64,000 nt of DNA from an uncultured Clostridia bacterium (GCA_947426455.1 CANEEC010000002.1:15430-79429); one strand, 5' to 3'; numbered from the stretch's first letter, positions 789 through 41,409 are shown. Numbers and translations: made by a program. The notes: generated from the letters alone by a model not told the origin.

Positions 789-1256
789 ATGAGTCAAAAC
801 ATCCAAACCGAATTCAAATTTACCGTGGGGACGCTGCTGCACAGCACCAGCGCGCAGATGGAATCCTACATGCGGCAGTTTTACGAGGCTTTCGGCCTGA
901 CCACACCCCAGGCCATGGTTCTCCTGCACCTGCACCGCTGCGGTCGGGGAAAAATCTCAGAGGTTGCCTGCAAGCTGCACATGACCAACAGCAACCTGTC
1001 TTCCATCTGCCGGCGACTGGAGCGTGACGGCCTCATCAGCCGAACCCGCGACACGCAGGATCAGCGCATCGTGTGGATCACCCTGACAGAAACCTGCCGG
1101 GATCACCTGTGCCGGCTGGAAAAAAAGATCGACGAGCAGTATCTGAACAACCTGGCATCCGTATCTCCGGAGGATCGCGAAATCATACTGGCCGGTCTGA
1201 CGAAGCTGAACAGTCTCCTGGCCGCCTGCAACGACTGCGATTGCCACAGCAAATAA
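789..1256 (+). CDS. MarR family transcriptional regulator
   Basis: ORF 771..1256. It has winged-helix-like LTTPQAMVLLHLHR...ISEVACKLHMTNSNLSSICRRLERDGLISR..DQR. An ATG at 789 is preceded by GGAAGAGGA. The C-terminus is Cys/His-rich (CNDCDCH). Confidence 0.8.
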   Translation: MSQNIQTEFKFTVGTLLHSTSAQMESYMRQFYEAFGLTTPQAMVLLHLHRCGRGKISEVACKLHMTNSNLSSICRRLERDGLISRTRDTQDQRIVWITLTETCRDHLCRLEKKIDEQYLNNLASVSPEDREIILAGLTKLNSLLAACNDCDCHSK

Positions 1257-1277
1257 CATAGGAGGAACTTCTTAACA

Positions 1278-3317
1278 ATGACAAACAATATGAACCAAAA
1301 CCAGAACAATCAAAACAGCGGCCTGAGAGATCCGGGCGGCTACGACTATCGCGGCGGTTCCAATGGAATGGGAAACCCGCCCAACGGCATGGGCGGTGCG
1401 GGCGGCAATCCGGGCGGCCCCCGGCGTCCGCAGAAACCCAGAAAGTCGATTTTTTATTACTATACCATCGTCATGCTGCTGGTGCTCTGTTTCAACCTGT
1501 TCATCGCTCCCATGATCAACGAAGCCCACAGCACCATTGAAGCTACCACCTACGACGCTTTCCTGGATATGGTGGACAAAGGCCAGGTACAGGTCGTGGA
1601 AATCACCACTGACACCATCTACTTCTCCCCCACCGATTCAGCGGTGGAGAATTTGGAAAATCCCAACATTAAGGTCTACACCACCGGAAACATGAACGAT
1701 CCGGCGTTGGTATCCACCCTGCGCGATGCCGGCGTCACCTTCGGCCGCGTGAAAGATCCGGAGCCGTCGGCTCTGGCCAAATTCGTCAGCAATTACGTTC
1801 TGCCCATTCTCCTGTTCGTATTCTTAGGCCAGATGCTCAGTAGGATGATGGCCAAGCGCATGGGAAACATGGGCGGACCCGGCGCCATGATGGGCGGCAT
1901 GGGTAAGAGCAACGCCAAGGTCTACGAAGCCAGTACCGGCGGCAAGACCTTCGCCGATGTGGCCGGTCAGGACGAGGCCAAAGAGGCTCTGACGGAAATC
2001 GTGGACTTCCTCCACAACCCCGGCCGCTATAAGGAAGTGGGCGCGAAGATGCCCAAGGGCGCCCTTTTGGTAGGTCCTCCGGGAACGGGTAAGACCCTTC
2101 TGGCCAAGGCGCTGGCCGGAGAGGCAAAGGTTCCCTTCTTCTCCACCTCCGGTTCCGAATTCGTGGAAATGTTCGTGGGCATGGGCGCCGCCCGGGTTCG
2201 CGACCTGTTCGCTCAGGCGGAGAAAAAAGCGCCCTGCATCATCTTTATTGACGAAATCGACGCCATCGGTAAGAAGCGCGACCAGCAGGGCATCGGCGGA
2301 AACGACGAGCGGGAACAGACCCTGAATCAACTGCTCACAGAGATGGACGGCTTTGACGCCGGAAAGGGCATCGTCATCCTGGCCGCCAGCAACCGTCCCG
2401 AAACCCTGGATAAAGCGCTGCTGCGCCCCGGCCGCTTCGACCGCAGAATTCCGGTGGAGCTGCCCGACCTGAAAGGACGCGAAGCCATTTTAAAGGTTCA
2501 CGCTGAAAATATAAAATACGACCCCCAGGTGGATTTCAGCGCCATCGCCCGCGCCACTGCCGGAGCCTCCGGCGCCGACCTGGCCAACATCGTCAACGAA
2601 GCCGCTTTACGCGCCGTTAGAGATCACCGTTCTCAGGTAGCGCAGGCTGACCTGGAGGAATCCGTGGAGACGGTCATCGCCGGATATCAGCGCAAGAACG
2701 CCGTGATTTCCACCAGAGAGAGAAACATCATCGCCTATCACGAAATCGGCCACGCGCTGGTAGCTGCAAAGAACAAAAACAGCGCGCCGGTTCACAAGAT
2801 CACCATCATCCCCAGAACCTCCGGCGCTTTGGGTTATACTATGCAGGTGGAGGAGGGAGAAAAGGTTCTCCTTTCCAGAGAAGAAGCCTTTGAAAAGATC
2901 ATGACCTTCACCGGCGGCCGCGCCGCAGAGGAGCTGGTGTTCCACTCCGTCACCTCCGGTGCCTCCAACGACATCGAGCAGGCCACCAAGCTGGCACGCG
3001 CCATGGTTGCCCGCTACGGCATGAGCGATCAGTTCGACATGGTCGCGCTGGAAACCGTGTCCGGTCAGTATCTGGGCGGCGACACCTCCCTGGCCTGCTC
3101 CGCAGAAACCTCCGCTAAAATCGATCAGGAGGTGATTTCCATGGTGAAGGACGCCCATCAGAAGGCGCTGGTCATCCTGAAAGAAAACGAAGCGAAGCTC
3201 CATGAGCTGGCGGAATACCTGCTGGAAAAAGAAACGATCACCGGCGAAGAATTCATGAAGATTCTAAATCAGCCGCCAAAGTATGGTGCCGCTGCACAGA
3301 ACACCGTTTCCGAATAG
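1278..3317 (+). CDS. ftsH: ATP-dependent zinc metalloprotease FtsH
   Basis: 679 aa. Walker A is GPPGTGKT, Walker B is IIFIDEIDA, and the zinc site is HEIGHA. There is a TM segment after an N/Q/G-rich N-terminal extension. Confidence 0.97.
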
Positions 3318-3423
3318 GCGCGTGAATTGCCGTACAAAAACCACAACTACGCCAAACTGCGAAAACTGCAACAGCGCAGAAACACGAAAATCACAGCCAC
3401 GCAAAAAGAGATATCTATAAAGG

Positions 3424-3466
3424 ACGCTCCGCCCGGGAAACCGAAATCCCCAGCGGAGCGTTTTTC
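3424..3466 (+). terminator. rho-independent terminator after ftsH
   Basis: Stem ACGCTCCGC (3424..3432) pairs with GCGGAGCGT (3453..3461) and is followed by TTTTT. Confidence 0.7.
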
Positions 3467-3591
3467 TCTGAAAAAACAGGGCGAAAAATGGAAAAAAAGA
3501 TTGACGAACAAAAATCCAGGGCGTAAATTGAAAGCATACCATACTGTGCCGCGGATACGCGTTCGCGGCGAGAAAGAAAGGATGATGATAG

Positions 3592-4758
3592 TTGGACATC
3601 AAACGCGAAGTCAAAGAGCTGGAGCAGGACATGATTACGCTCCGCCGCAAGTTTCACAGACACCCTGAACTGGGTCTTCACGAGGTGTGGACCTCCGGTG
3701 TCATCGAAGGTTATTTAAAGGATTTGGGACTGGAGGTTCGCCGCTGTATGCAAACCGGCATCATCGGCGTATTGAAAGGCGACCATCCGGGAAAGACCAT
3801 CCTGCTGCGCTGCGACATTGACGCTCTGCCTGTGGAAGAAGAAACCGGTCTTCCCTTTGCCTCGGAGTATCCCGGAACAATGCACGCCTGCGGTCACGAC
3901 GGCCACATGGCTCTGCATCTGACCACTGCCCGATTGCTGGCCAGGCATCGTGATGAGCTTCACGGAACGGTGGTCTTTTTATTTCAGCCTAACGAAGAAG
4001 ATGCGGGAGCCGAATTGATGATTCAGGCCGGCGCACTGGAAAATCCCAAACCGGACGCTGTCTGCGGATTTCACCTGTGGTCGCCCCTTCCCACCGGAAC
4101 CATCGGACTGATCCCCGGGCCTATCATGGCCTCCAGCTACTATTTCAAGCTGACCATTCACGGCCATCCCGGTCACGGAGGCGCGCCCCATACCGCCGTC
4201 AATCCCATCGACGCGGCGGGTCACGTATTGACCGCCATCAAAACGCTTCATACGCTGGAACTGGATTCCACCAAACCCACGGTCATCTCCGTCTGTAAAA
4301 TCCACAGCGGCATCAAGGAAATCACCGTGCCGGAAACTCTGGAAATGGAAGGCTCCATTCGATGCCTTCACGATGGAGATCAGGCTGTCCGAGACCGTTT
4401 CCGCCAGCTTTGCACAGCGGTTTGCGCCGCCTATCGCTGCACCTGCGATATCGAGTTCAAATGCGGAAACTCTCTGCTGAGCAACGATAAGGCCATGACC
4501 AGATTGGCCAGAAGCGCTGCCGAAAACGTGGTAGGTCAGGAAAACATCCTCACCGACAATATCAGCGTCATGTTAGGCGATGACTTCGCGGAATTTTCCA
4601 ACCGCATCCCCGGCGTTTATTACTTCATCGGAACCCGCAGTGAAGAGGCGGGAAGCGTCTATGAACACCACCATCCCCGCTTTGTGATAGACGAAGCGTC
4701 GCTTGCCATCGGCGTACAGATGCAGGCGGAAATGGTCATGCGCTATCTCAATGAATAA
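3592..4758 (+). CDS. M20 family amidohydrolase (N-acyl-L-amino acid amidohydrolase / hippurate hydrolase type)
   Basis: 388 aa. The N-terminus LRRKFHRHPELGLHE and the MHACGHDGH metal-binding motif are typical of the family. The apparent start codon is TTG. Confidence 0.85.
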   Translation: MDIKREVKELEQDMITLRRKFHRHPELGLHEVWTSGVIEGYLKDLGLEVRRCMQTGIIGVLKGDHPGKTILLRCDIDALPVEEETGLPFASEYPGTMHACGHDGHMALHLTTARLLARHRDELHGTVVFLFQPNEEDAGAELMIQAGALENPKPDAVCGFHLWSPLPTGTIGLIPGPIMASSYYFKLTIHGHPGHGGAPHTAVNPIDAAGHVLTAIKTLHTLELDSTKPTVISVCKIHSGIKEITVPETLEMEGSIRCLHDGDQAVRDRFRQLCTAVCAAYRCTCDIEFKCGNSLLSNDKAMTRLARSAAENVVGQENILTDNISVMLGDDFAEFSNRIPGVYYFIGTRSEEAGSVYEHHHPRFVIDEASLAIGVQMQAEMVMRYLNE

Positions 4759-35696: not shown

Positions 35697-36019
35697 CTTC
35701 TTTCCTTTTGGTAATGTGTATGTCGATTCCCCGGGACTGAATCACCGCGGGATCTTTGGGCAAATTTTTCATAAAACATGCTATTCAATAATAGCACAAT
35801 CACTTTCTTACCGCAAGTTCTTTTTTTGTTTTTGTCCGGTCTTTTTGGGAATTGGCACAAATTGGCGTAAAATCAGCGCAAATTTGCTCTAATAAATTAT
35901 TTTGATGATTTAATCCAAACAATGTATTTTATTTTTTGAAGAAAATGCAGTATGATAAAAAGAAAGAATTGTCTATGGTTATCAATGGTATTTATGAATA
36001 TAAACAGGAGGACAAACCA

Positions 36020-37192
36020 ATGAACATTCAGGAAGCATCTTTAAAGTTCCACGAACAGCTGCGCGGTAAGATCGAAGTCAAGGGAAAGGCTCCGGTGAAA
36101 AACGCCGACGACCTGTCTTTGGCCTACACCCCCGGCGTGGCCGAACCCTGCCGCCACATCGCAAAGAATAAAGACGACGTTTACAAGTATACCGGCAAAG
36201 GCAACATGGTTGCCGTGGTCACCGACGGTTCCGCCGTCTTAGGCCTAGGCAACATCGGTCCCGAAGCCGGCATGCCGGTCATGGAAGGAAAATGCGTTCT
36301 GTTCAAAGAATTTGCGGGCGTTAACGCTTTTCCCATCTGCGTCGCTTCTCAGGACGTAGAGGATATCATCCACACCGTCAAGATGATCGCTCCCAGCTTC
36401 GGCGGAATCAATTTGGAGGACATCGGTTCCCCCCGCTGCGCGGAAGTGGAGCGCCGCCTGAAAAAAGAACTGGATATTCCCGTATTCCACGACGACCAGC
36501 ACGGAACCGCCATCGTGGTCACCGCCGGCCTGATCAACGCTCTGCGGGTGGTGGGCAAGGAATGGAAGGACGTTACCGTGGCCATGAGCGGCGCGGGAGC
36601 CGCCGGTTCTGCCATCGCCAGAATGCTTTTGAACATGGGCGTAAAAGACATCTTCTGCTGCTCCAGCAAGGGCATCTTAAACCGCAAGGAAACCTATTCT
36701 AACTGGGTACACCAGGAAATCGCCGAGCTGACCAATAAGGAAGGCCGCACCGGCGGCATGGCGGAAGCCATCCGCGGAACGGACATCTTCGTAGGCGTAT
36801 CCGTCAAAGACGTGGTGACCAAAGAGATGGTGCAAACCATGGCGAGGGACGCCATCGTCATCCCCATGGCCAACCCCGATCCCGAAATTCAGCCGGATGT
36901 GGCAAAAGCCGCAGGCGCAAGAGTGGTAGGCACCGGCCGCTCCGACCATCCCAACCAGATCAACAACGTATTGGCATTTCCCGGCGTGTTCCGCGGCGCA
37001 TTGGACGCCAAGGCCAGCGACATCAACGAGGAAATGAAGGTGGCCGCCGCAAAAGCCATCGCTTCTCTGGTTTCCGACGAAGAGCTGTCTGAGGATTACA
37101 TCATCGTTCCGCCCTTTGACGCCCGCGTCGGCGAAACCGTAGCCAAAGCTGTCTACCAGGCAGCCATCGATAGCGGCGTAGCGCGGATTTAA
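36020..37192 (+). CDS. NAD(P)-dependent malic enzyme (short form)
   Basis: [28 protein letters not shown], and GGINLEDI match the family. The ATG at 36020 is preceded by AGGAGGA. Confidence 0.9.
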
Positions 37193-37303
37193 CGGATTTG
37201 GCGGATTTGGCGGCGCAATCCCCGCTTGCAGGACTGCCGCAGTGTTGAATGTAATGCGCATTTTCTATGCGCTGCTTGCTCCGTCACAACAAACACGTTC
37301 CAA

Positions 37304-37360
37304 CAAAAAAGGGCATTGCTCATCATTGGAATCGATGATCTGGCAACGCCCTTTTATTTT
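37304..37360. terminator. bidirectional terminator between the malic enzyme gene and the Ltp-like gene
   Basis: GGGCATTGC...GCAACGCCC is flanked by A6 and T-runs. Confidence 0.6.
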
Positions 37361-37375
37361 TGCTTTTCTTTTCTT

Positions 37376-37969
37376 TTATTCCAAATGGTCGATGGCATAC
37401 TGCGCTTCTTCTGCTGTAAATTTCTCTCCGTATTCAGAAGTTAGCTGGTCATAAATTGCCGACGGCGACATACTCATCATATCCTGATAGACTTTTGCTT
37501 TTTCCAGTGCATTGGCGTTCCAATCTGCCTCGAGATGTTCCATCGCGTACTGTGCGGCTTCTGCGCTGAATTTTTCACCGTATTCGGAAGTTAGCTGATC
37601 ATAAATCCCAGCTTTGGACATATGCATATCATCACTATAAATCTTGGCTTTACGGAGAGCAGATTTGTACTCAGCAGGAATTGACGCGTCATTCTTCGAG
37701 CTATCTGTATTTTCTGCATTGGTATCGCTTCCTTGAGTGGTTTCGGTGGAAACAGAAGTATTGAGGTCGCTATTAGAATTGCCGCTCTCATCGCTGCCGC
37801 CATTACCACCGATCGCGCCAATAACTATAATGATAATTAAAATAATAAACCATGCCCTTTGATAAAAAGGTTTCTTATTCTTCGCTCCGCAAGATGGACA
37901 TATCTTTGCCTTTGCTGATATCGAAGCGTTACAATTCTTGCATACCGTCATTTTAGGAGTTTTGGACAT
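37376..37969 (-). CDS. zinc-ribbon, TM and 2x Ltp-repeat (host cell surface-exposed lipoprotein family) protein
   Basis: The N-terminus has CKNC...CPSC, followed by the TM segment WFIILIIIIVIGAIG. Two repeats follow with A.KA.[IV]Y...M.MS..[GA]IYDQLTSEYGEKF[ST]AE.AQYA[MI].HLE. Confidence 0.7.
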   Translation of the reverse strand: MSKTPKMTVCKNCNASISAKAKICPSCGAKNKKPFYQRAWFIILIIIIVIGAIGGNGGSDESGNSNSDLNTSVSTETTQGSDTNAENTDSSKNDASIPAEYKSALRKAKIYSDDMHMSKAGIYDQLTSEYGEKFSAEAAQYAMEHLEADWNANALEKAKVYQDMMSMSPSAIYDQLTSEYGEKFTAEEAQYAIDHLE

Positions 37970-37996
37970 ATCATTTTCCTCTCTTTCTCTTTCGCG

Positions 37997-38980
37997 CTAC
38001 CTGCCTAAGATCTGTTTCTTTTCTTCATCAAATTCTTCCTGCGTTAAAATCCCCTCATCGAGCAGTGATTTCAATTCCCTTAATTGCTCTATTTTGCTTT
38101 TTTCAGCCTGTTTCGGCCGAGCAGAAATGTTTTGTATTCCCTGCGCCATCGTATTTCCCAATGCCACTCCCGCTCCTAATCCTGCCAACCCTCCCTTTTG
38201 CTTAGAAGCCTCCATCATAGCACGAGCCGTCTGATACTGCATAAAAGAGTCCATGTCCTGTTTGGCCATTCCTATGCCCGACTGTTCATCGATCAGTCTT
38301 TCCACTTCGTCCGGCAGGGAAACGTTTTCTACAAGGACATCGCTAAACTGAATGCCTATCGTCCGTGCCTGTTCATTGAGTTTTGCCTGTATCATACCAG
38401 AAAGCTTCCGGTATTCCGTAGCTAAATCAAGAACGGACATTGTTGTTTCTCCCACCGTTATGGAAAAAGCTTCCGTGACCATGGAAGACAGATAGTCAAC
38501 AATATCGTAGGTCATTACAATCCCTTTTGTCCCAAATATCTCTCTCATAAAAACAGGGACATCTGTGATCCGAAAAGCAAATTTTCCAAATGCCCGAATA
38601 CGAACCATGTTAAAATCGCTATCCCGCTTCATAATAGGATTTTTCGTCGCCCACTTATTGTCAATAAATTGCCTTGTACTTACAAAATACAGATCGGCGA
38701 TAACAGGAGAAACGAACAAATACGGAAATGCTTTTAAAGTAGAAAGTACCGGAAAATTTTCTGTTCTCAAAGAATAAGTCCCCGGCGGAAGTATATCTGC
38801 AAGTTGTCCGCCTTTCAGGAAAACCGCGCTCTGACTTTCTCTGACGATCACTTTTGACCCTTGCTTTAGTTCGTTATTTCCACTTTCCCTTTGAAATTTT
38901 GCAACAATCAACTTGTTATTCTTGTCCTCATATTCTATGACATCAAGAAATTGATCTTTTACCACATCAAGTAATCCCAT
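37997..38980 (-). CDS. SPFH-domain protein (YdjI/COG4260-like) with a C-terminal SHOCT domain
   Basis: MGLLDVVKDQFLDVIEYEDKNNKLIVAKF... is typical of the YdjI-like family. The C-terminal KIEQLRELKSLLDEGILTQEEFDEEKKQILGR is a SHOCT motif. The ATG at 38980 has an AGAGGAAG RBS. Confidence 0.7.
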   Translation of the reverse strand: MGLLDVVKDQFLDVIEYEDKNNKLIVAKFQRESGNNELKQGSKVIVRESQSAVFLKGGQLADILPPGTYSLRTENFPVLSTLKAFPYLFVSPVIADLYFVSTRQFIDNKWATKNPIMKRDSDFNMVRIRAFGKFAFRITDVPVFMREIFGTKGIVMTYDIVDYLSSMVTEAFSITVGETTMSVLDLATEYRKLSGMIQAKLNEQARTIGIQFSDVLVENVSLPDEVERLIDEQSGIGMAKQDMDSFMQYQTARAMMEASKQKGGLAGLGAGVALGNTMAQGIQNISARPKQAEKSKIEQLRELKSLLDEGILTQEEFDEEKKQILGR

Positions 38981-38993
38981 ATTCTTCCTCTTA

Positions 38994-39386
38994 TTACTGC
39001 CGTAAAGGCAATCCGAAGTCGTCTTCGAACGAACCCATTGCAATGAAAATGATATCAACAAGCCAACCGATACCACAGATACCTATCGTAAACAAATAGA
39101 GGATACCTGTGCCTATCTTCCCTACATAAAACCGATGCGCTCCTGCCCAGCCCAAAAAGATGCATAAAAGAAGCGCCGTAACTTTACTTTTCCTGCTGAT
39201 GCCTGGCATAACTCCCATGTTATTGATCGGCTGAGGGTTCATACTCATCTGTTGTACGGTTTGAAGCTGCTGCGAGACATCGTTTGTATATGCTGTCGGC
39301 TCGGGCTGTTTATTTGCAACATATCCGCAATAGCCGCAGCCTTCATTTTCCATCGGTGCTCCACACATCGGGCATTTTGTTTCCAT
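38994..39386 (-). CDS. zinc-ribbon plus TM2-domain membrane protein
   Basis: It has CPMCGAPMENEGCGYCGY. The TM2 signature is ALLLCIFLGWAGAHRFYVGKIGTGILYLFT..GIGWLVDIIFI. Confidence 0.75.
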   Translation of the reverse strand: METKCPMCGAPMENEGCGYCGYVANKQPEPTAYTNDVSQQLQTVQQMSMNPQPINNMGVMPGISRKSKVTALLLCIFLGWAGAHRFYVGKIGTGILYLFTIGICGIGWLVDIIFIAMGSFEDDFGLPLRQ

Positions 39387-39420
39387 ATCTGACCTTCCCT
39401 CCCATCAAATTTATTTATTA

Positions 39421-39561
39421 AAAGGTGTACCTTTGAAAACTTCAAACTATCTTGATTGGCGAGATGATTTTTTGCTAAAAAACCTTGAAATTTGCGATTT
39501 TTTGAAGTAAAATAAATTATGTATATACCATAGTGCCAAATTTGTAAAGGTACACCTTTGC
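39421..39561. mobile_element. candidate invertible DNA switch (inverton): 113-bp segment bounded by 14-bp inverted crossover-like sites
   Basis: AAAGGT-GT-ACCTTT is at 39421..39434 and AAAGGT-AC-ACCTTT is at 39548..39561. The switch is adjacent to a small serine recombinase gene. The left site lies only 34 nt upstream of the TM2 gene ATG. Confidence 0.55.
39485..39513 (+). promoter_or_regulatory. sigma-A-like promoter inside the invertible segment, currently facing away from the TM2/SPFH/Ltp operon
   Basis: TTGAAA (39485..39490), a 17-nt spacer, then TAAAAT (39508..39513). Confidence 0.5.
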
Positions 39562-39564
39562 AAA

Positions 39565-40283
<719 letters not shown>

Positions 40284-40317
40284 GTTTTATTTTCTCAACC
40301 TTATCCAGCAAATGTTA

Positions 40318-41409
40318 TTACAGCTTCAACCCCTTGCGGATCTTGATCATGAAGTCCTGCACGTTGGTCACGATGCTCTTGGCGGCCAGACTTCCCCGGT
40401 CGCCCAGCTTGTTCACGGCAAACTCGGAGATATCCACGGTGTAGAAGTAGACGGGACGCACCGTCTTGTCCGCAAGCACCCGATAGGTGGGCGTCATGTT
40501 GCCGGTGGCGATGGTGTGAAGCATGGAGGCCATGCAGATTACCGTAGTGGCCTTTCGCACACAGTTGCGCATGGCGTCCTGACCGCGGTACACGTCGGCA
40601 TACACCTCCGGCATGGGACCGTCGTCGCGGATGGAACCGGTGAGAACCAGCGGAATGTTGTTCTTAATACAGCTGTAGACGATGCCGTTATCGATGCCTT
40701 CTTCCTCAATGAACCGTTCCATGGAACCGTAGCTGCGAACCTTGTTCAGCGTATCGATGTGATTGTAGTGCCCGTTGCTCATCAACCTCTGCGTGCGGAT
40801 GTCCTGCCCTAAAGCCGTGCCCAGATAGGCTCCTTCCAGATCATGGGTGGCCAGCGCATTGCCCGCTAAAACTGCGTCCACATAGCCGTTTTCCACCAGC
40901 TTGGAAAAGGCTTTTCTCGCGGAAGCGTCGAAGGTGCAGGCAGGTCCCATGACCCAAACCACATAGCCGTTTTCTTTTTCATGGCGCAAAAGATCCTGCA
41001 AAAACCGATAATCCGCAGAAAACGCCGTCTCTCTGGAACGCTTCTGTCGGAATAAAAAGACGTTCTCCGATTCGTTTCCGCTGCCGGCAAACCCATCTGC
41101 ATAGACCAAAATTCCGTCCTCGCCGTTTTCCGTGCGGCCGCAGGCCACCAGATCGCCCCGCTTCAGGTTGCGAAATTCTTTCACCTCGATTCGCCCGTCC
41201 TTCCACACGGCCACGCAGTCCATGCGGCTTTCCTCCGCCAAAACCCATGCGCCGTCGATTTTATAATACTCCGGAAAAATACTGGTGGCATGATAACCCT
41301 CCGGCGCTACGAAGTCCATTTCCGCCGCTTTCCAAACGGCGTCGGGAGCGCTTGCCAATCGTTTCTCTGTAAAATCCGGCGCTTTGTATTTTGTCAACTG
41401 AAATTCCAT
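40318..41409 (-). CDS. TIGR00300-like protein (LOR/SDH bifunctional-enzyme conserved region; possible ornithine-cyclodeaminase-type enzyme)
   Basis: 363 aa. The family was recalled from motifs such as VVWVMGPACTFDASAR..., AVLAGNALATHDLE, and LVLTGSIRDDGPMPEV. The assignment comes from memory only. Confidence 0.4.
   Translation of the reverse strand: MEFQLTKYKAPDFTEKRLASAPDAVWKAAEMDFVAPEGYHATSIFPEYYKIDGAWVLAEESRMDCVAVWKDGRIEVKEFRNLKRGDLVACGRTENGEDGILVYADGFAGSGNESENVFLFRQKRSRETAFSADYRFLQDLLRHEKENGYVVWVMGPACTFDASARKAFSKLVENGYVDAVLAGNALATHDLEGAYLGTALGQDIRTQRLMSNGHYNHIDTLNKVRSYGSMERFIEEEGIDNGIVYSCIKNNIPLVLTGSIRDDGPMPEVYADVYRGQDAMRNCVRKATTVICMASMLHTIATGNMTPTYRVLADKTVRPVYFYTVDISEFAVNKLGDRGSLAAKSIVTNVQDFMIKIRKGLKL

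What the first reader, a model, noticed from the sequence alone, without database searches (positions are those of the whole stretch)
39421..39561. Candidate serine-recombinase inverton: two 6-2-6 palindromic sites that differ only in core-dinucleotide polarity, flanking a 113-bp promoter cassette
- Seen directly: AAAGGT-GT-ACCTTT lies at 39421..39434 and AAAGGT-AC-ACCTTT at 39548..39561.
- Each site is a perfect palindrome apart from the central 2 nt, and that dinucleotide is reversed between the two sites (GT versus AC).
- Small serine recombinases cut with a 2-nt stagger at the centre of a dyad-symmetric site, and the non-palindromic core sets site polarity. Two sites in this relative orientation therefore predict inversion rather than excision.
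- The right site ends 3 nt from the stop codon of a 205-aa resolvase/invertase-family gene ([11 protein letters not shown]...).
- The left site lies 34 nt upstream of the ATG of the first gene of a three-gene operon. Only an RBS (GGGAGGGAAGG) sits between them, so the operon has no room for a fixed promoter.
- The enclosed segment carries a near-consensus promoter (TTGAAA, 17-nt spacer, TAAAAT; 39485..39513) plus a second weaker one (TTGATT, 18-nt spacer, TAAAAA). Both are on the + strand. They point away from the operon and antisense into the recombinase gene.
- I found no comparably good promoter on the minus strand of the segment.
- Inference: in this assembly the switch is OFF. Inversion would place the -10 element about 80 nt upstream of the TM2-gene ATG.
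- Caveat: the sites are only 127 bp apart centre to centre, which is short for looping and would probably need a DNA-bending protein.
Basis: partly seen in the sequence, partly recalled or inferred. Interest (0 to 1): 0.8.

Follow-up and report, generated by a model that had tools for sequence, protein, structure and literature searches.

The report
Invertible promoter switch, caught flipped
A 125-bp piece of DNA carrying a promoter sits between a recombinase gene and a three-gene membrane/phage-exclusion operon and can be flipped by the recombinase to turn the operon on or off. The same locus is found flipped, base for base, in another public sample.

Summary
AAAGGTGTACCTTT lies at 39421-39434 and its reverse complement at 39546-39559. 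These are the centres of two ~24-bp dyad sites (11-2-11) with a GT/AC core, 125 bp apart.

- One public contig of the same organism (L174) carries this exact locus with the segment inverted precisely at the predicted cores. It shows 0 mismatches to an in-silico flip and 56 mismatches to the unflipped sequence. Eleven other contigs and the window are in the OFF orientation.
- At least four related lineages also occur in both orientations.
- The recombinase belongs to a very large, highly conserved family in gut Clostridia. Most members are followed by the same architecture: stop codon, GT site, promoter cassette, AC site, RBS, cargo gene.

New points:
- In the OFF state, the fixed flank and one cassette end together form a strong hairpin with a U-tract. 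This probably terminates the outward-facing promoter. Inversion dismantles it.
- Cassette lengths are quantised at about 115, 126 and 137 bp, which suggests helical phasing.
- Cargo genes vary: SPFH/Sie-like genes, DNA methyltransferases, surface proteins and TnpB.

The kind of switch is known. This family and its features appear undescribed in the literature I could search.

The parts
39565..40182 (-). Small serine recombinase gene (205 aa, GTG start). Presumed invertase of the switch.
   Evidence: PF00239 E 4e-28. PHROG 125 'DNA invertase' E 7.5e-52. Best solved relative is Sin/Bin3 2r0q, E 4e-30, with YGYIRVS and SIDRLGRNY aligned to the Sin catalytic motifs. The exact protein is held as P0001.
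39541..39564 (.). Recombinase-proximal crossover site, about 11-2-11 bp: TTTGTAAAGGT-AC-ACCTTTGCAAA on the + strand. The core is 39552-39553.
   Evidence: Half-site logo T-n-T-n-n-AAA-n-GT with conserved positions out to 11 nt from the core. Inversion breakpoint verified in L174.
39416..39439 (.). Cargo-proximal crossover site: TATTAAAAGGT-GT-ACCTTTGAAAA on the + strand. The core is 39427-39428. The 14-mer is 39421-39434.
39429..39551 (.). Invertible cassette between the two core dinucleotides. It is in the OFF orientation in this window.
   Evidence: Found exactly reverse-complemented in L174, same species, 0 mismatches to the in-silico flip.
39485..39513 (+). Cassette promoter TTGAAA-17-TAAAAT. 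It points toward the recombinase gene here. After inversion it would sit on the - strand at about 39467-39495, with a 5' UTR of about 73 nt before the TM2 ATG.
   Evidence: Conserved as TTGAAA-17-TATAAT/TAAAAT in relatives, in either orientation. ON-state geometry read from L174.
39530..39585 (+). OFF-state-specific hairpin (39530-39576, 21-bp stem centred on the proximal site) followed by UUUUACUUUGU. It is a probable intrinsic terminator for the OFF-facing promoter. On the other strand it forms a 3' stem-loop for the recombinase mRNA.
   Evidence: dG -26.9 kcal/mol, z -5.6. Across relatives the hairpin is strong only in the OFF orientation: mean -19.1 against -10.3 after an in-silico flip (n=50), and the reverse for ON loci, -10.2 against -21.8 (n=9).
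39393..39403 (-). Ribosome-binding site GGGAGGGAAGG of the first cargo gene.
   Evidence: Read directly.
38994..39386 (-). Cargo gene 1: zinc-ribbon plus TM2-domain membrane protein (130 aa).
   Evidence: PF05154 E 2e-22.
37997..38980 (-). Cargo gene 2: SPFH (Band_7_1) protein with a C-terminal SHOCT domain (327 aa).
   Evidence: PF13421 E 8e-70, PF09851 E 2.5e-8. Gene call in L001.
37376..37969 (-). Cargo gene 3: zinc-ribbon membrane protein with two Ltp repeats (197 aa), resembling a superinfection-exclusion protein.
   Evidence: PF07553 E 8e-52. PHROG 4980 'superinfection exclusion' E 4e-65.

Best explanation
This is a working promoter inverton, that is, a phase-variation switch.

Anatomy. 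A 125-bp cassette (39429-39551) is bounded by two ~24-bp dyad-symmetric sites in inverted orientation. Their polarity is set by a central GT/AC dinucleotide.

Inversion. The adjacent 205-aa small serine recombinase is inferred to bind both sites, cleave with a 2-nt stagger at the cores, and invert the cassette.

OFF state, as in the window. The cassette's single sigma-70-type promoter faces the recombinase gene. Its transcript runs straight into a 21-bp hairpin plus U-tract. That hairpin is assembled from the fixed flank just after the recombinase stop codon and the promoter-downstream end of the cassette. The transcript is therefore inferred to terminate after about 60 nt. The same stem-loop caps the recombinase mRNA and insulates the operon.

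ON state. The promoter faces the operon, with a ~73-nt leader and the RBS retained, and the hairpin is dismantled. The operon encodes a TM2 protein, an SPFH/SHOCT protein and an Ltp-type superinfection-exclusion-like protein, so it is expressed only in a subpopulation. This is plausibly bet-hedging over envelope state or phage susceptibility.

Context. The whole module (recombinase, switch and operon) is a low-GC island.

Shown: the site anatomy, exact inversion in the same species, conservation and co-variation of the sites, and the orientation-dependent hairpin.
Inferred: that this recombinase is the catalyst, that the promoter and terminator are active, and the operon's function.
For: - Exact inversion in the same organism. 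L174 equals flipped L004 with 0/775 mismatches, against 56 unflipped. It equals flipped L173 and L175 with 0 mismatches over the first ~2.3 kb.
- Orientation count for this species: 11 other contigs plus the window are OFF and 1 is ON.
- Related lineages in both orientations with collinear flanks. The SPFH-cargo lineage has 9 OFF and 6 ON contigs; flanks are 96-100% identical and the interior matches only in reverse complement. Other flipped pairs are L107 vs L142/L162, L110 vs L111, L085 vs L070/L047, L053 vs L038/L021/L065 and L089 vs L020/L017.
- ON and OFF cassettes interleave in a similarity tree, which indicates repeated inversions.
- 66 of about 85 informative genome loci keep an inverted-repeat pair of at least 13/16 directly after the recombinase stop codon.
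- The core is GT/AC in 47 of 49 loci, and the half-site logo extends to 11 nt.
- Half-site variants co-vary between the two sites: GTGTAG/CTACAC, GTGTGA/TCACAC, GCGTAC/GTACGC.
- The promoter is conserved.
- The hairpin depends on orientation.
- The recombinase has intact catalytic motifs and a resolvase-type architecture.
- There is no room for a fixed promoter between the left site and the ATG, and no - strand promoter in the cassette.
Against: - No read-level data were available, so the switching rate and within-sample heterogeneity are unknown. The ON contig could in principle be a strain fixed in the other orientation.
- In the SPFH-cargo lineage no ON/OFF pair has an identical cassette (best 94%).
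- Promoter, terminator and recombinase activity are all predictions.
- The hairpin's U-tract is interrupted (UUUUACUUUGU), and the simple terminator scan did not list it because its 4-nt loop and A/U-rich stem fall outside the scan's rules.
- A 125-bp loop is very short for a serine-recombinase synapse. No accessory site or bending-protein site was identified.
- Read-through from the recombinase gene could make OFF leaky.
- PADLOC finds no known defence family in the operon.
Confidence: 0.87

Rival explanations
1. The orientation difference is an old, fixed polymorphism. The cassette was inverted in some lineages in the past, but the switch no longer flips in this organism, so the window's locus is simply a permanently silent or read-through-expressed operon.
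For: - 11 of 12 same-species contigs and the window share one orientation.
- In the SPFH-cargo lineage, ON and OFF cassettes differ by 6-17%.
- There are no read-level data.
Against: - The ON contig L174 is identical, 0 mismatches over 775 nt to 2.3 kb, to flipped OFF contigs. It even shares their private 1-nt T-run variant. L004 and L175 have accession numbers in the same run series as L174 (SRR279768xx-279769xx).
- The recombinase ORF and both sites are intact.
- Orientation is homoplastic across the cassette tree.
Confidence: 0.07
2. The cassette's main job is to regulate the recombinase rather than the operon. In the window's orientation the promoter makes an antisense or 3'-overlapping RNA that controls recombinase expression, and the operon is driven from elsewhere.
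For: - The promoter faces the recombinase gene in the majority state.
- The hairpin overlaps the recombinase 3' end.
Against: - The hairpin plus U-tract lies between the promoter and the coding sequence and should stop most transcripts.
- The cargo gene always follows the distal site at RBS distance, with no space for its own promoter.
- In ON loci the same promoter points at the cargo.
Confidence: 0.04
3. The 125-bp element is a miniature transposable element with terminal inverted repeats that has inserted in either orientation. It is not a segment inverted in place.
For: It is short, bounded by inverted repeats, and found in both orientations.
Against: - It always sits at the same position, directly after the stop codon of a serine recombinase gene.
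- The outer half-sites lie outside the swapped segment and are conserved.
- There are no target-site duplications, and no other copy in the 64-kb window.
- The breakpoints fall in the 2-bp core region of dyad sites typical of serine recombinases.
Confidence: 0.01
4. The flipped contig is an assembly artefact caused by the inverted repeats.
For: Inverted repeats can create assembly bubbles. Several same-species contigs are short or end near the locus.
Against: - The perfect repeat is only 14 bp, shorter than usual assembly k-mers.
- The flipped contig is contiguous across both junctions into the recombinase gene and the operon.
- Flipped states recur in many independent assemblies from different studies and assemblers.
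Confidence: 0.01

Closest known systems
Hin/Gin/Cin/Pin DNA invertase switches (Salmonella hin-hix flagellar switch, phage Mu gin-gix)
   Same: - A small serine recombinase is encoded next to the switch.
- Two dyad-symmetric crossover sites of about 24-26 bp lie in inverted orientation.
- A 2-bp asymmetric core sets polarity.
- As in Hin, the segment carries a promoter whose orientation decides expression of flanking genes. (Established knowledge of these systems; anatomy here.)
   Different: - The segment is 125 bp rather than about 1-4 kb, and the recombinase gene lies outside it.
- No Fis-dependent enhancer can be assumed. As far as I know, Fis is an enterobacterial protein that Firmicutes lack.
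- The protein is closer to Sin/Bin3 and resolvases (E 4e-30) than to Gin (E 1e-16).
- A state-specific terminator is built across the crossover site.
Bacteroides fragilis Mpi and related Bacteroidales promoter invertons
   Same: - Serine-type invertase acting on short (~200 bp) promoter cassettes flanked by inverted repeats.
- Gut commensals; cargo includes surface structures.
- Detected in metagenomes in both orientations (PMC8748976, PMC11892184).
   Different: - The Mpi model NF009949 scores 44 bits against a cut-off of 272, so this protein is not a member.
- Mpi acts in trans on many promoters genome-wide, whereas here each switch has its own recombinase in cis.
- The repeat motif and promoter type differ (sigma-70 TTGAAA-17-TATAAT rather than the Bacteroides motif).
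Sin / Bin3 (Tn552), beta recombinase (pSM19035) and other Firmicutes plasmid resolvases
   Same: - Closest solved structures and sequence relatives: 2r0q E 4e-30; plasmid homologues up to 52% identity.
- From my own knowledge, untested here: Sin and beta need a DNA-bending protein (HU/Hbsu), and beta can invert between inverted sites. That offers a plausible route to synapsis on a short loop.
   Different: - Those enzymes resolve plasmid or transposon multimers at res sites that include accessory binding sites.
- Here there are two single crossover sites in inverted orientation flanking a promoter, and no accessory site was recognised.
Clostridioides difficile RecV switches (flgB, cwpV, cmrRST, pdcB)
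   Same: - Short invertible regulatory cassettes upstream of operons in a member of the Clostridia.
- In the flgB switch, orientation acts after transcription initiation through Rho-mediated effects on the leader (PMC7446863). This is a parallel to the orientation-dependent terminator proposed here.
   Different: - RecV is a tyrosine recombinase that acts in trans on several switches.
- Here a serine recombinase is linked in cis, and the terminator is intrinsic and split across the crossover site.

Membership tests
Small serine recombinases (resolvase/invertase family) | N-terminal resolvase catalytic domain (PF00239) | tested here: met
   E 4.4e-28, 98.6 bits against a cut-off of 23.3, residues 4-147.
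Small serine recombinases (resolvase/invertase family) | Catalytic serine and the Arg/Asp cluster (YxRVS...Q; DRLGR) | tested here: met
   [11 protein letters not shown] and SIDRLGRNY align to the Sin motifs IGYARVSSLDQ and SIDRLGRNY. They are invariant in 29 homologues.
Small serine recombinases (resolvase/invertase family) | C-terminal helix-turn-helix DNA-binding domain after the long E-helix | tested here: inconclusive
   - No Pfam HTH hit.
- The C-terminal 66 aa alone find nothing in the PDB.
- The full-length alignment to Gin spans residues 4-191.
- The AF2 model gives a confident three-helix bundle at 160-200 (pLDDT 71-90) after helix 102-144.
- The best fold match is the gamma-delta resolvase-DNA complex over 196 columns. 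The overall model quality is low.
Promoter inverton (invertible promoter switch) | Inverted repeats flanking a segment that is observed in both orientations with fixed flanks | tested here: met
   Same-species contig L174 against L004/L173/L175. Several related lineages as well.
Promoter inverton (invertible promoter switch) | A promoter inside the segment that faces the regulated gene in only one orientation | tested here: met
   This is met by sequence prediction only. TTGAAA-17-TAAAAT is the sole consensus-like site in the cassette, is conserved in relatives and tracks orientation. Promoter activity was not measured.
Promoter inverton (invertible promoter switch) | A site-specific recombinase that catalyses the inversion | not testable with these tools
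   The only evidence is cis-linkage: the recombinase gene ends at the proximal site in the window and in about 66 related loci.
Hin/Gin-type enhancer-dependent invertases | Fis-bound recombinational enhancer in cis, and a loop long enough to trap it | tested here: not met
   The segment is 125 bp with no room for an enhancer-containing loop. Presence of an enhancer elsewhere was not testable. Sequence is closer to Sin and resolvases than to Gin.
Mpi family master invertase (NF009949) | Score above the NCBIfam curated cut-off | tested here: not met
   44.2 bits against a cut-off of 272.
IS607-family TnpA serine transposase (NF033518) | Score above the curated cut-off, and an N-terminal MerR-like HTH before the catalytic domain | tested here: not met
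   24.6 bits against a cut-off of 110. The catalytic domain starts at residue 4, so there is no N-terminal HTH. This test matters because 11 related modules sit upstream of tnpB.

The most novel reading that the evidence does not exclude
The window's switch may be one member of a very large and so far uncharacterised family of self-contained, horizontally mobile 'recombinase plus ultrashort promoter-inverton' modules in gut Clostridia. The family has more than 8000 proteins at E <= 1e-20 (the search's candidate cap) and at least 573 loci among species-representative genomes.

The family would have three features not described for other invertases:
1. A crossover site embedded in a split terminator that exists in only one orientation. 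This gives a clean OFF state and insulates the recombinase gene.
2. Cassette lengths restricted to helically phased classes (about 115, 126 and 137 bp). This implies an enhancer-independent synapse on a loop shorter than the persistence length of DNA.
3. Plug-in control of very different cargo: Sie/SPFH envelope operons, DNA methyltransferases, a PLD-SNF2 defence-like helicase, surface proteins, CsrA and TnpB RNA-guided nucleases.
Probability: 0.45. Interest if true: 0.78.

Novelty: new variant of a known kind. Interest (0 to 1): 0.66.

Why it matters
- Phase variation in gut Clostridia. Outside C. difficile it is poorly charted, and surveys report few invertons in this group, the main Clostridia-dominated inverton group being linked to tyrosine recombinases (PMC11892184, PMC8748976). 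This locus gives a concrete, sequence-defined serine-recombinase switch with a simple signature. That signature could be used to annotate thousands of ON/OFF loci in gut metagenomes.
- Possible link to phage pressure. In this organism the switch gates a superinfection-exclusion-like envelope operon, so orientation could report or shape phage pressure.
- Mechanism. The 115/126/137-bp quantisation and the orientation-assembled terminator make testable statements about how a small serine recombinase synapses two sites across a very short loop, and about how an inverton avoids antisense damage to its own recombinase gene.
- Engineering. The module is compact (about 0.8 kb), which makes it attractive as a genetic switch for Firmicutes.
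- TnpB. Its link to TnpB genes would mean phase-variable expression of RNA-guided nucleases.

Tried and rejected
- Exact-pattern scans of viral contigs for the cargo-side junction of the ICE-borne L007 type and of the window type: 0 hits each.
- Metagenome scan for the window's cargo-side junction: 0 hits.
- Rfam scan of 39200-39800: only chance-level hits, with E 0.12 and 1, far below the gathering scores. No known RNA element explains the hairpin.
- PADLOC on the three operon proteins and the recombinase: nothing.
- Search for longer repeats marking a larger mobile element around the island: none.
- First k-mer test for orientation: uninformative because it counted both strands. It was replaced by direct comparison.
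- The gapless palindrome score: too crude where the arms carry 1-nt indels. It was replaced by folding energies.
- C-terminal domain alone against the PDB: no meaningful hit.
- AF2 model: low overall confidence because the alignment is shallow, so the fold search is only indicative.
- Literature: eight full-text searches and several papers found no description of this recombinase/site family. Jiang et al. 2019 (PMC6543533) is not held, so prior listing of individual loci in bulk inverton catalogues cannot be excluded.
- The AA/TT periodicity peak at 11.5 bp is only suggestive, because the cassettes are related by descent.

Full report
**1. The observation**

The left 14-mer AAAGGTGTACCTTT is at 39421-39434 as reported. 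The right one, AAAGGTACACCTTT, is at 39546-39559, two bases left of the reported position. The two are exact reverse complements, so they form a 14-bp inverted repeat whose arms are each nearly palindromic.

A search allowing two mismatches finds nothing else in the 64 kb except one doubtful site at 2861. Shuffles give 0.18 matches on average and never reach the observed count. The repeat extends inward to 30 nt at 80% complementarity.

The promoter TTGAAA-17-TAAAAT at 39485-39513 (+) is the only consensus-like promoter inside the segment on either strand. The neighbouring genes are as described:
- a 205-aa PF00239 serine recombinase (39565-40182, -);
- a tight three-gene operon on the same strand, made up of a TM2 protein, an SPFH Band_7_1 protein with a SHOCT domain, and a zinc-ribbon protein with two Ltp repeats.

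The Ltp protein matches PHROG 4980 'superinfection exclusion' at E 4e-65.

**2. The architecture recurs at related loci**

The recombinase has more than 8000 relatives at E <= 1e-20. The nearest are 80-88% identical. At least 573 loci were found in one-genome-per-species bacterial genomes, almost all gut Clostridia.

In 66 of about 85 informative loci, an inverted-repeat pair of at least 13/16 follows the recombinase stop codon. The layout is constant:
- stop codon;
- about 10-30 nt;
- a dyad site with core GT;
- a cassette;
- a dyad site with core AC;
- an RBS and a gene.

In 47 of 49 non-redundant genome loci the cores are GT (proximal) and AC (distal). All four half-sites share the logo T-n-T-n-n-A-A-A-n-G-T, with information out to 11 nt from the core.

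Where half-sites differ from the consensus, the change is mirrored at the partner site: GTGTAG with CTACAC, GTGTGA with TCACAC, GCGTAC with GTACGC. That is the pattern expected if the two sites must remain recombination partners.

**3. Inversion is seen directly, including in the window's organism**

Look-ups of the operon proteins returned further contigs of the same organism. One of them, L174 (Logan SRR27976897), has the cassette reverse-complemented between unchanged flanks.
- Flipping L004 (SRR27976904) in silico at the two core dinucleotides reproduces L174 with 0 mismatches over 775 nt. The unflipped sequences differ at 56 positions.
- Flipped L173 and L175 match L174 without mismatch over the first ~2.3 kb.
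- L004, L173, L175 and L174 share a private 1-nt shorter T-run. L004, L175 and L174 have neighbouring run accessions.

Among relatives, the SPFH-cargo lineage sampled by a site-pattern scan of metagenomes has 9 OFF and 6 ON contigs. Their flanks are 96-100% identical and their interiors align only in reverse complement. Other flipped pairs are L107 vs L142/L162, L110 vs L111, L085 vs L070/L047, L053 vs L038/L021/L065 and L089 vs L020/L017. ON and OFF cassettes interleave in a similarity tree, so orientation has changed many times.

A 14-bp perfect repeat is too short to cause such results through misassembly. A transposon-like origin also fits poorly, given the fixed position, the conserved outer half-sites and the absence of other copies.

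**4. How it most likely works**

The promoter is conserved in the cassette (TTGAAA-17-TATAAT or TAAAAT) and its direction tracks orientation.

In the ON contig L174 the promoter gives a leader of about 73 nt with no strong structure before the RBS.

In the OFF state something more is present. The proximal site lies at the centre of a 21-bp stem (39530-39576, dG -26.9 kcal/mol, z -5.6) followed by UUUUACUUUGU on the promoter's strand. The outer arm is the fixed sequence just after the recombinase stop codon. The inner arm is the end of the cassette that lies downstream of the promoter.

Across 59 non-redundant loci with a clear promoter direction:

| Observed state | n | Mean proximal hairpin dG as found (kcal/mol) | Mean dG after in-silico flip (kcal/mol) |
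|---|---|---|---|
| OFF | 50 | -19.1 | -10.3 |
| ON | 9 | -10.2 | -21.8 |

I infer a split intrinsic terminator that inversion assembles and dismantles. In the OFF state it stops the promoter's transcripts before they run antisense into the recombinase gene, and it caps the recombinase mRNA. In the ON state it is gone. This step is inference; no transcript data exist.

**5. The short loop**

Centre-to-centre distances of 108 non-redundant cassettes fall into distinct classes:

| Length range (bp) | Cassettes |
|---|---|
| 113-117 | 33 |
| 123-128 | 59 |
| 133-142 | 13 |
| 118-122 | 0 |
| 129-132 | 0 |

After collapsing to 46 clusters with less than 65% interior identity, the classes remain. 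Lengths are concentrated modulo 10.5-11 bp (R = 0.68). AA/TT dinucleotides show a spectral peak near 11.5 bp, but shared ancestry weakens that test.

The simplest reading is that the two sites must sit on a defined face of the helix relative to each other, as expected for synapsis across a very short, probably protein-bent loop. No accessory site was recognised.

**6. What the recombinase is**

Sequence comparisons:
- The closest solved relatives are Sin/Bin3 (E 4e-30), then gamma-delta and Tn3 resolvases, then Gin (E 1e-16).
- Plasmid homologues in Enterococcus, Bacillus and Clostridium are at most 52% identical.
- The curated models for Mpi and IS607 TnpA are far below their cut-offs.

Features of the protein itself:
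- The catalytic motifs are present, and they are invariant across 29 homologues.
- The C-terminal DNA-binding domain is not detected by sequence profiles. It is modelled as a confident three-helix bundle, and the best fold match is the gamma-delta resolvase-DNA complex.

It is therefore a small serine recombinase of resolvase topology. It is not a member of the Hin/Gin, Mpi or IS607 groups.

**7. Context and cargo**

The recombinase, switch and operon form a low-GC island, 38-46% against 53-60% in the flanks. The island lies between a malic enzyme gene and a nickel-pincer-dependent ornithine cyclodeaminase gene.

In relatives the same module precedes very different genes:
- TnpB/Cas12f-like proteins in 11 of 42 loci, all of the 115-bp class;
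- SPFH proteins;
- zinc-ribbon membrane proteins;
- C5 and MmeI-like DNA methyltransferases;
- a PLD-SNF2 helicase resembling DrmD/BrxH;
- CsrA;
- SLH and other surface proteins;
- a GGDEF protein.

One variant sits on an integrative element next to a large serine recombinase and TnpV. The module thus behaves as a portable ON/OFF switch.

The function of the window's operon is inferred only from domains. The Ltp match suggests superinfection exclusion. From my own knowledge, not tested here, the SPFH, zinc-ribbon and TM2 proteins recall the Bacillus subtilis ydjGHI envelope-stress genes.

**8. Novelty**

Promoter inversion by an adjacent serine invertase is a classical mechanism (Hin; Mpi in Bacteroides). 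The papers I could read report few invertons in Clostridia, and link the main Clostridia-dominated group to tyrosine recombinases (PMC11892184, PMC8748976). None mentions this recombinase family, its GTGTAC-centred sites, the quantised cassette lengths or the orientation-dependent hairpin. The 2019 PhaseFinder paper could not be read, so individual loci may already sit in bulk catalogues.

I rate the finding a new variant of a known kind.

**9. Verdict**

- The window shows the OFF state of a real inverton.
- Confidence that the segment inverts in place by site-specific recombination at these sites is about 0.9.
- Confidence in the full functional model, including promoter-driven operon control by the adjacent recombinase, is about 0.87.
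- The terminator model and the helical-phasing constraint are well-supported inferences that still need experiments.

Noticed in passing
window 37250-40250: The recombinase, switch and three-gene operon form a low-GC island (38-46% GC against 53-60% in the flanks). It sits between a malic enzyme gene (35936-37192, +) and a putative nickel-pincer-dependent ornithine cyclodeaminase gene (40318-41409, -). This suggests horizontal acquisition of the whole module. No flanking repeats were found.
   Followed up: partly
L021, L027, L028, L038, L041, L042, L044, L046, L053, L056, L065 (about 30-80 nt after the distal site): Eleven related recombinase-inverton modules sit directly upstream of a TnpB/Cas12f-like gene of about 390 aa (OrfB_IS605, HTH_OrfB_IS605, TNB domain). 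All have 113-115-bp cassettes without the TTGAAA-17-TATAAT promoter. L053 is flipped relative to L038/L021/L065. This implies phase-variable expression of an RNA-guided nuclease. The recombinase is not an IS607-type TnpA.
   Followed up: partly
L055, L077 (C5 MTase); L058, L067, L068 (MmeI-like MTase); L047, L070, L085 (PLD+SNF2 helicase); L075, L079 (CsrA); L045, L062, L063, L081, L091 (secreted/SLH proteins): Cargo genes of related switches include DNA methyltransferases (possible phasevarions), a DrmD/BrxH-like helicase, the global regulator CsrA and large surface proteins.
   Followed up: partly
L023 (sites about 28 and 144 nt after the recombinase stop) and L035 (about 17 and 159 nt after the stop): There are two exceptions to the GT/AC rule. 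L023 has a palindromic AT core at both sites, which should abolish site polarity. L035 has the polarity swapped, with AC proximal and GT distal.
   Followed up: no
L093-L161, SPFH-cargo lineage (cargo flank ACAATAAAAAATCGAAGGAG): Cassette interiors are markedly more divergent (83-94% identity) than the flanking recombinase 3' end and cargo 5' end (96-100%). This suggests fast cassette evolution or exchange of cassettes between modules.
   Followed up: partly
L071 vs L072, first about 260 nt after the recombinase stop: L071 looks like L072 with the whole cassette and leader deleted. The proximal site is fused directly to the cargo start region, and the junction is not at the distal site.
   Followed up: no
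L012-L091 record titles: The recombinase is 75-83% identical across MAGs labelled Oscillospiraceae, Lachnospiraceae, Faecalibacterium and Megasphaera, and even Succinivibrio and Bacteroides sp. CAG:545. The alignment of 29 homologues has 81% mean column identity. This reflects either strong conservation with horizontal spread or binning contamination.
   Followed up: no
L007-L011, positions 970-4603: An 86%-identical recombinase with its own inverton lies on an integrative element next to a 600-aa large serine recombinase, TnpV, DUF3801 and a VapE-like primase. It drives a zinc-ribbon/OB-fold membrane protein. That recombinase (P0019) is indexed in 293 blocks of the assembly collection.
   Followed up: partly
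window 40243-40284: An 11-bp-stem hairpin (AAGCAGGGCAT...ATGCCCTGCTT) with T-rich tails on both strands lies between the ornithine cyclodeaminase gene and the recombinase gene. It is probably the terminator of the upstream gene. No clear promoter for the recombinase gene was seen in the ~55 nt between this hairpin and the GTG start (read directly).
   Followed up: no
MT835780.1, MT836372.1, MT836284.1, MT836625.1 (hits H1-H4): Four unannotated 'Bacteriophage sp.' contigs from human faeces encode homologues of the recombinase at 47-67% identity. Whether they carry invertons was not examined.
   Followed up: no
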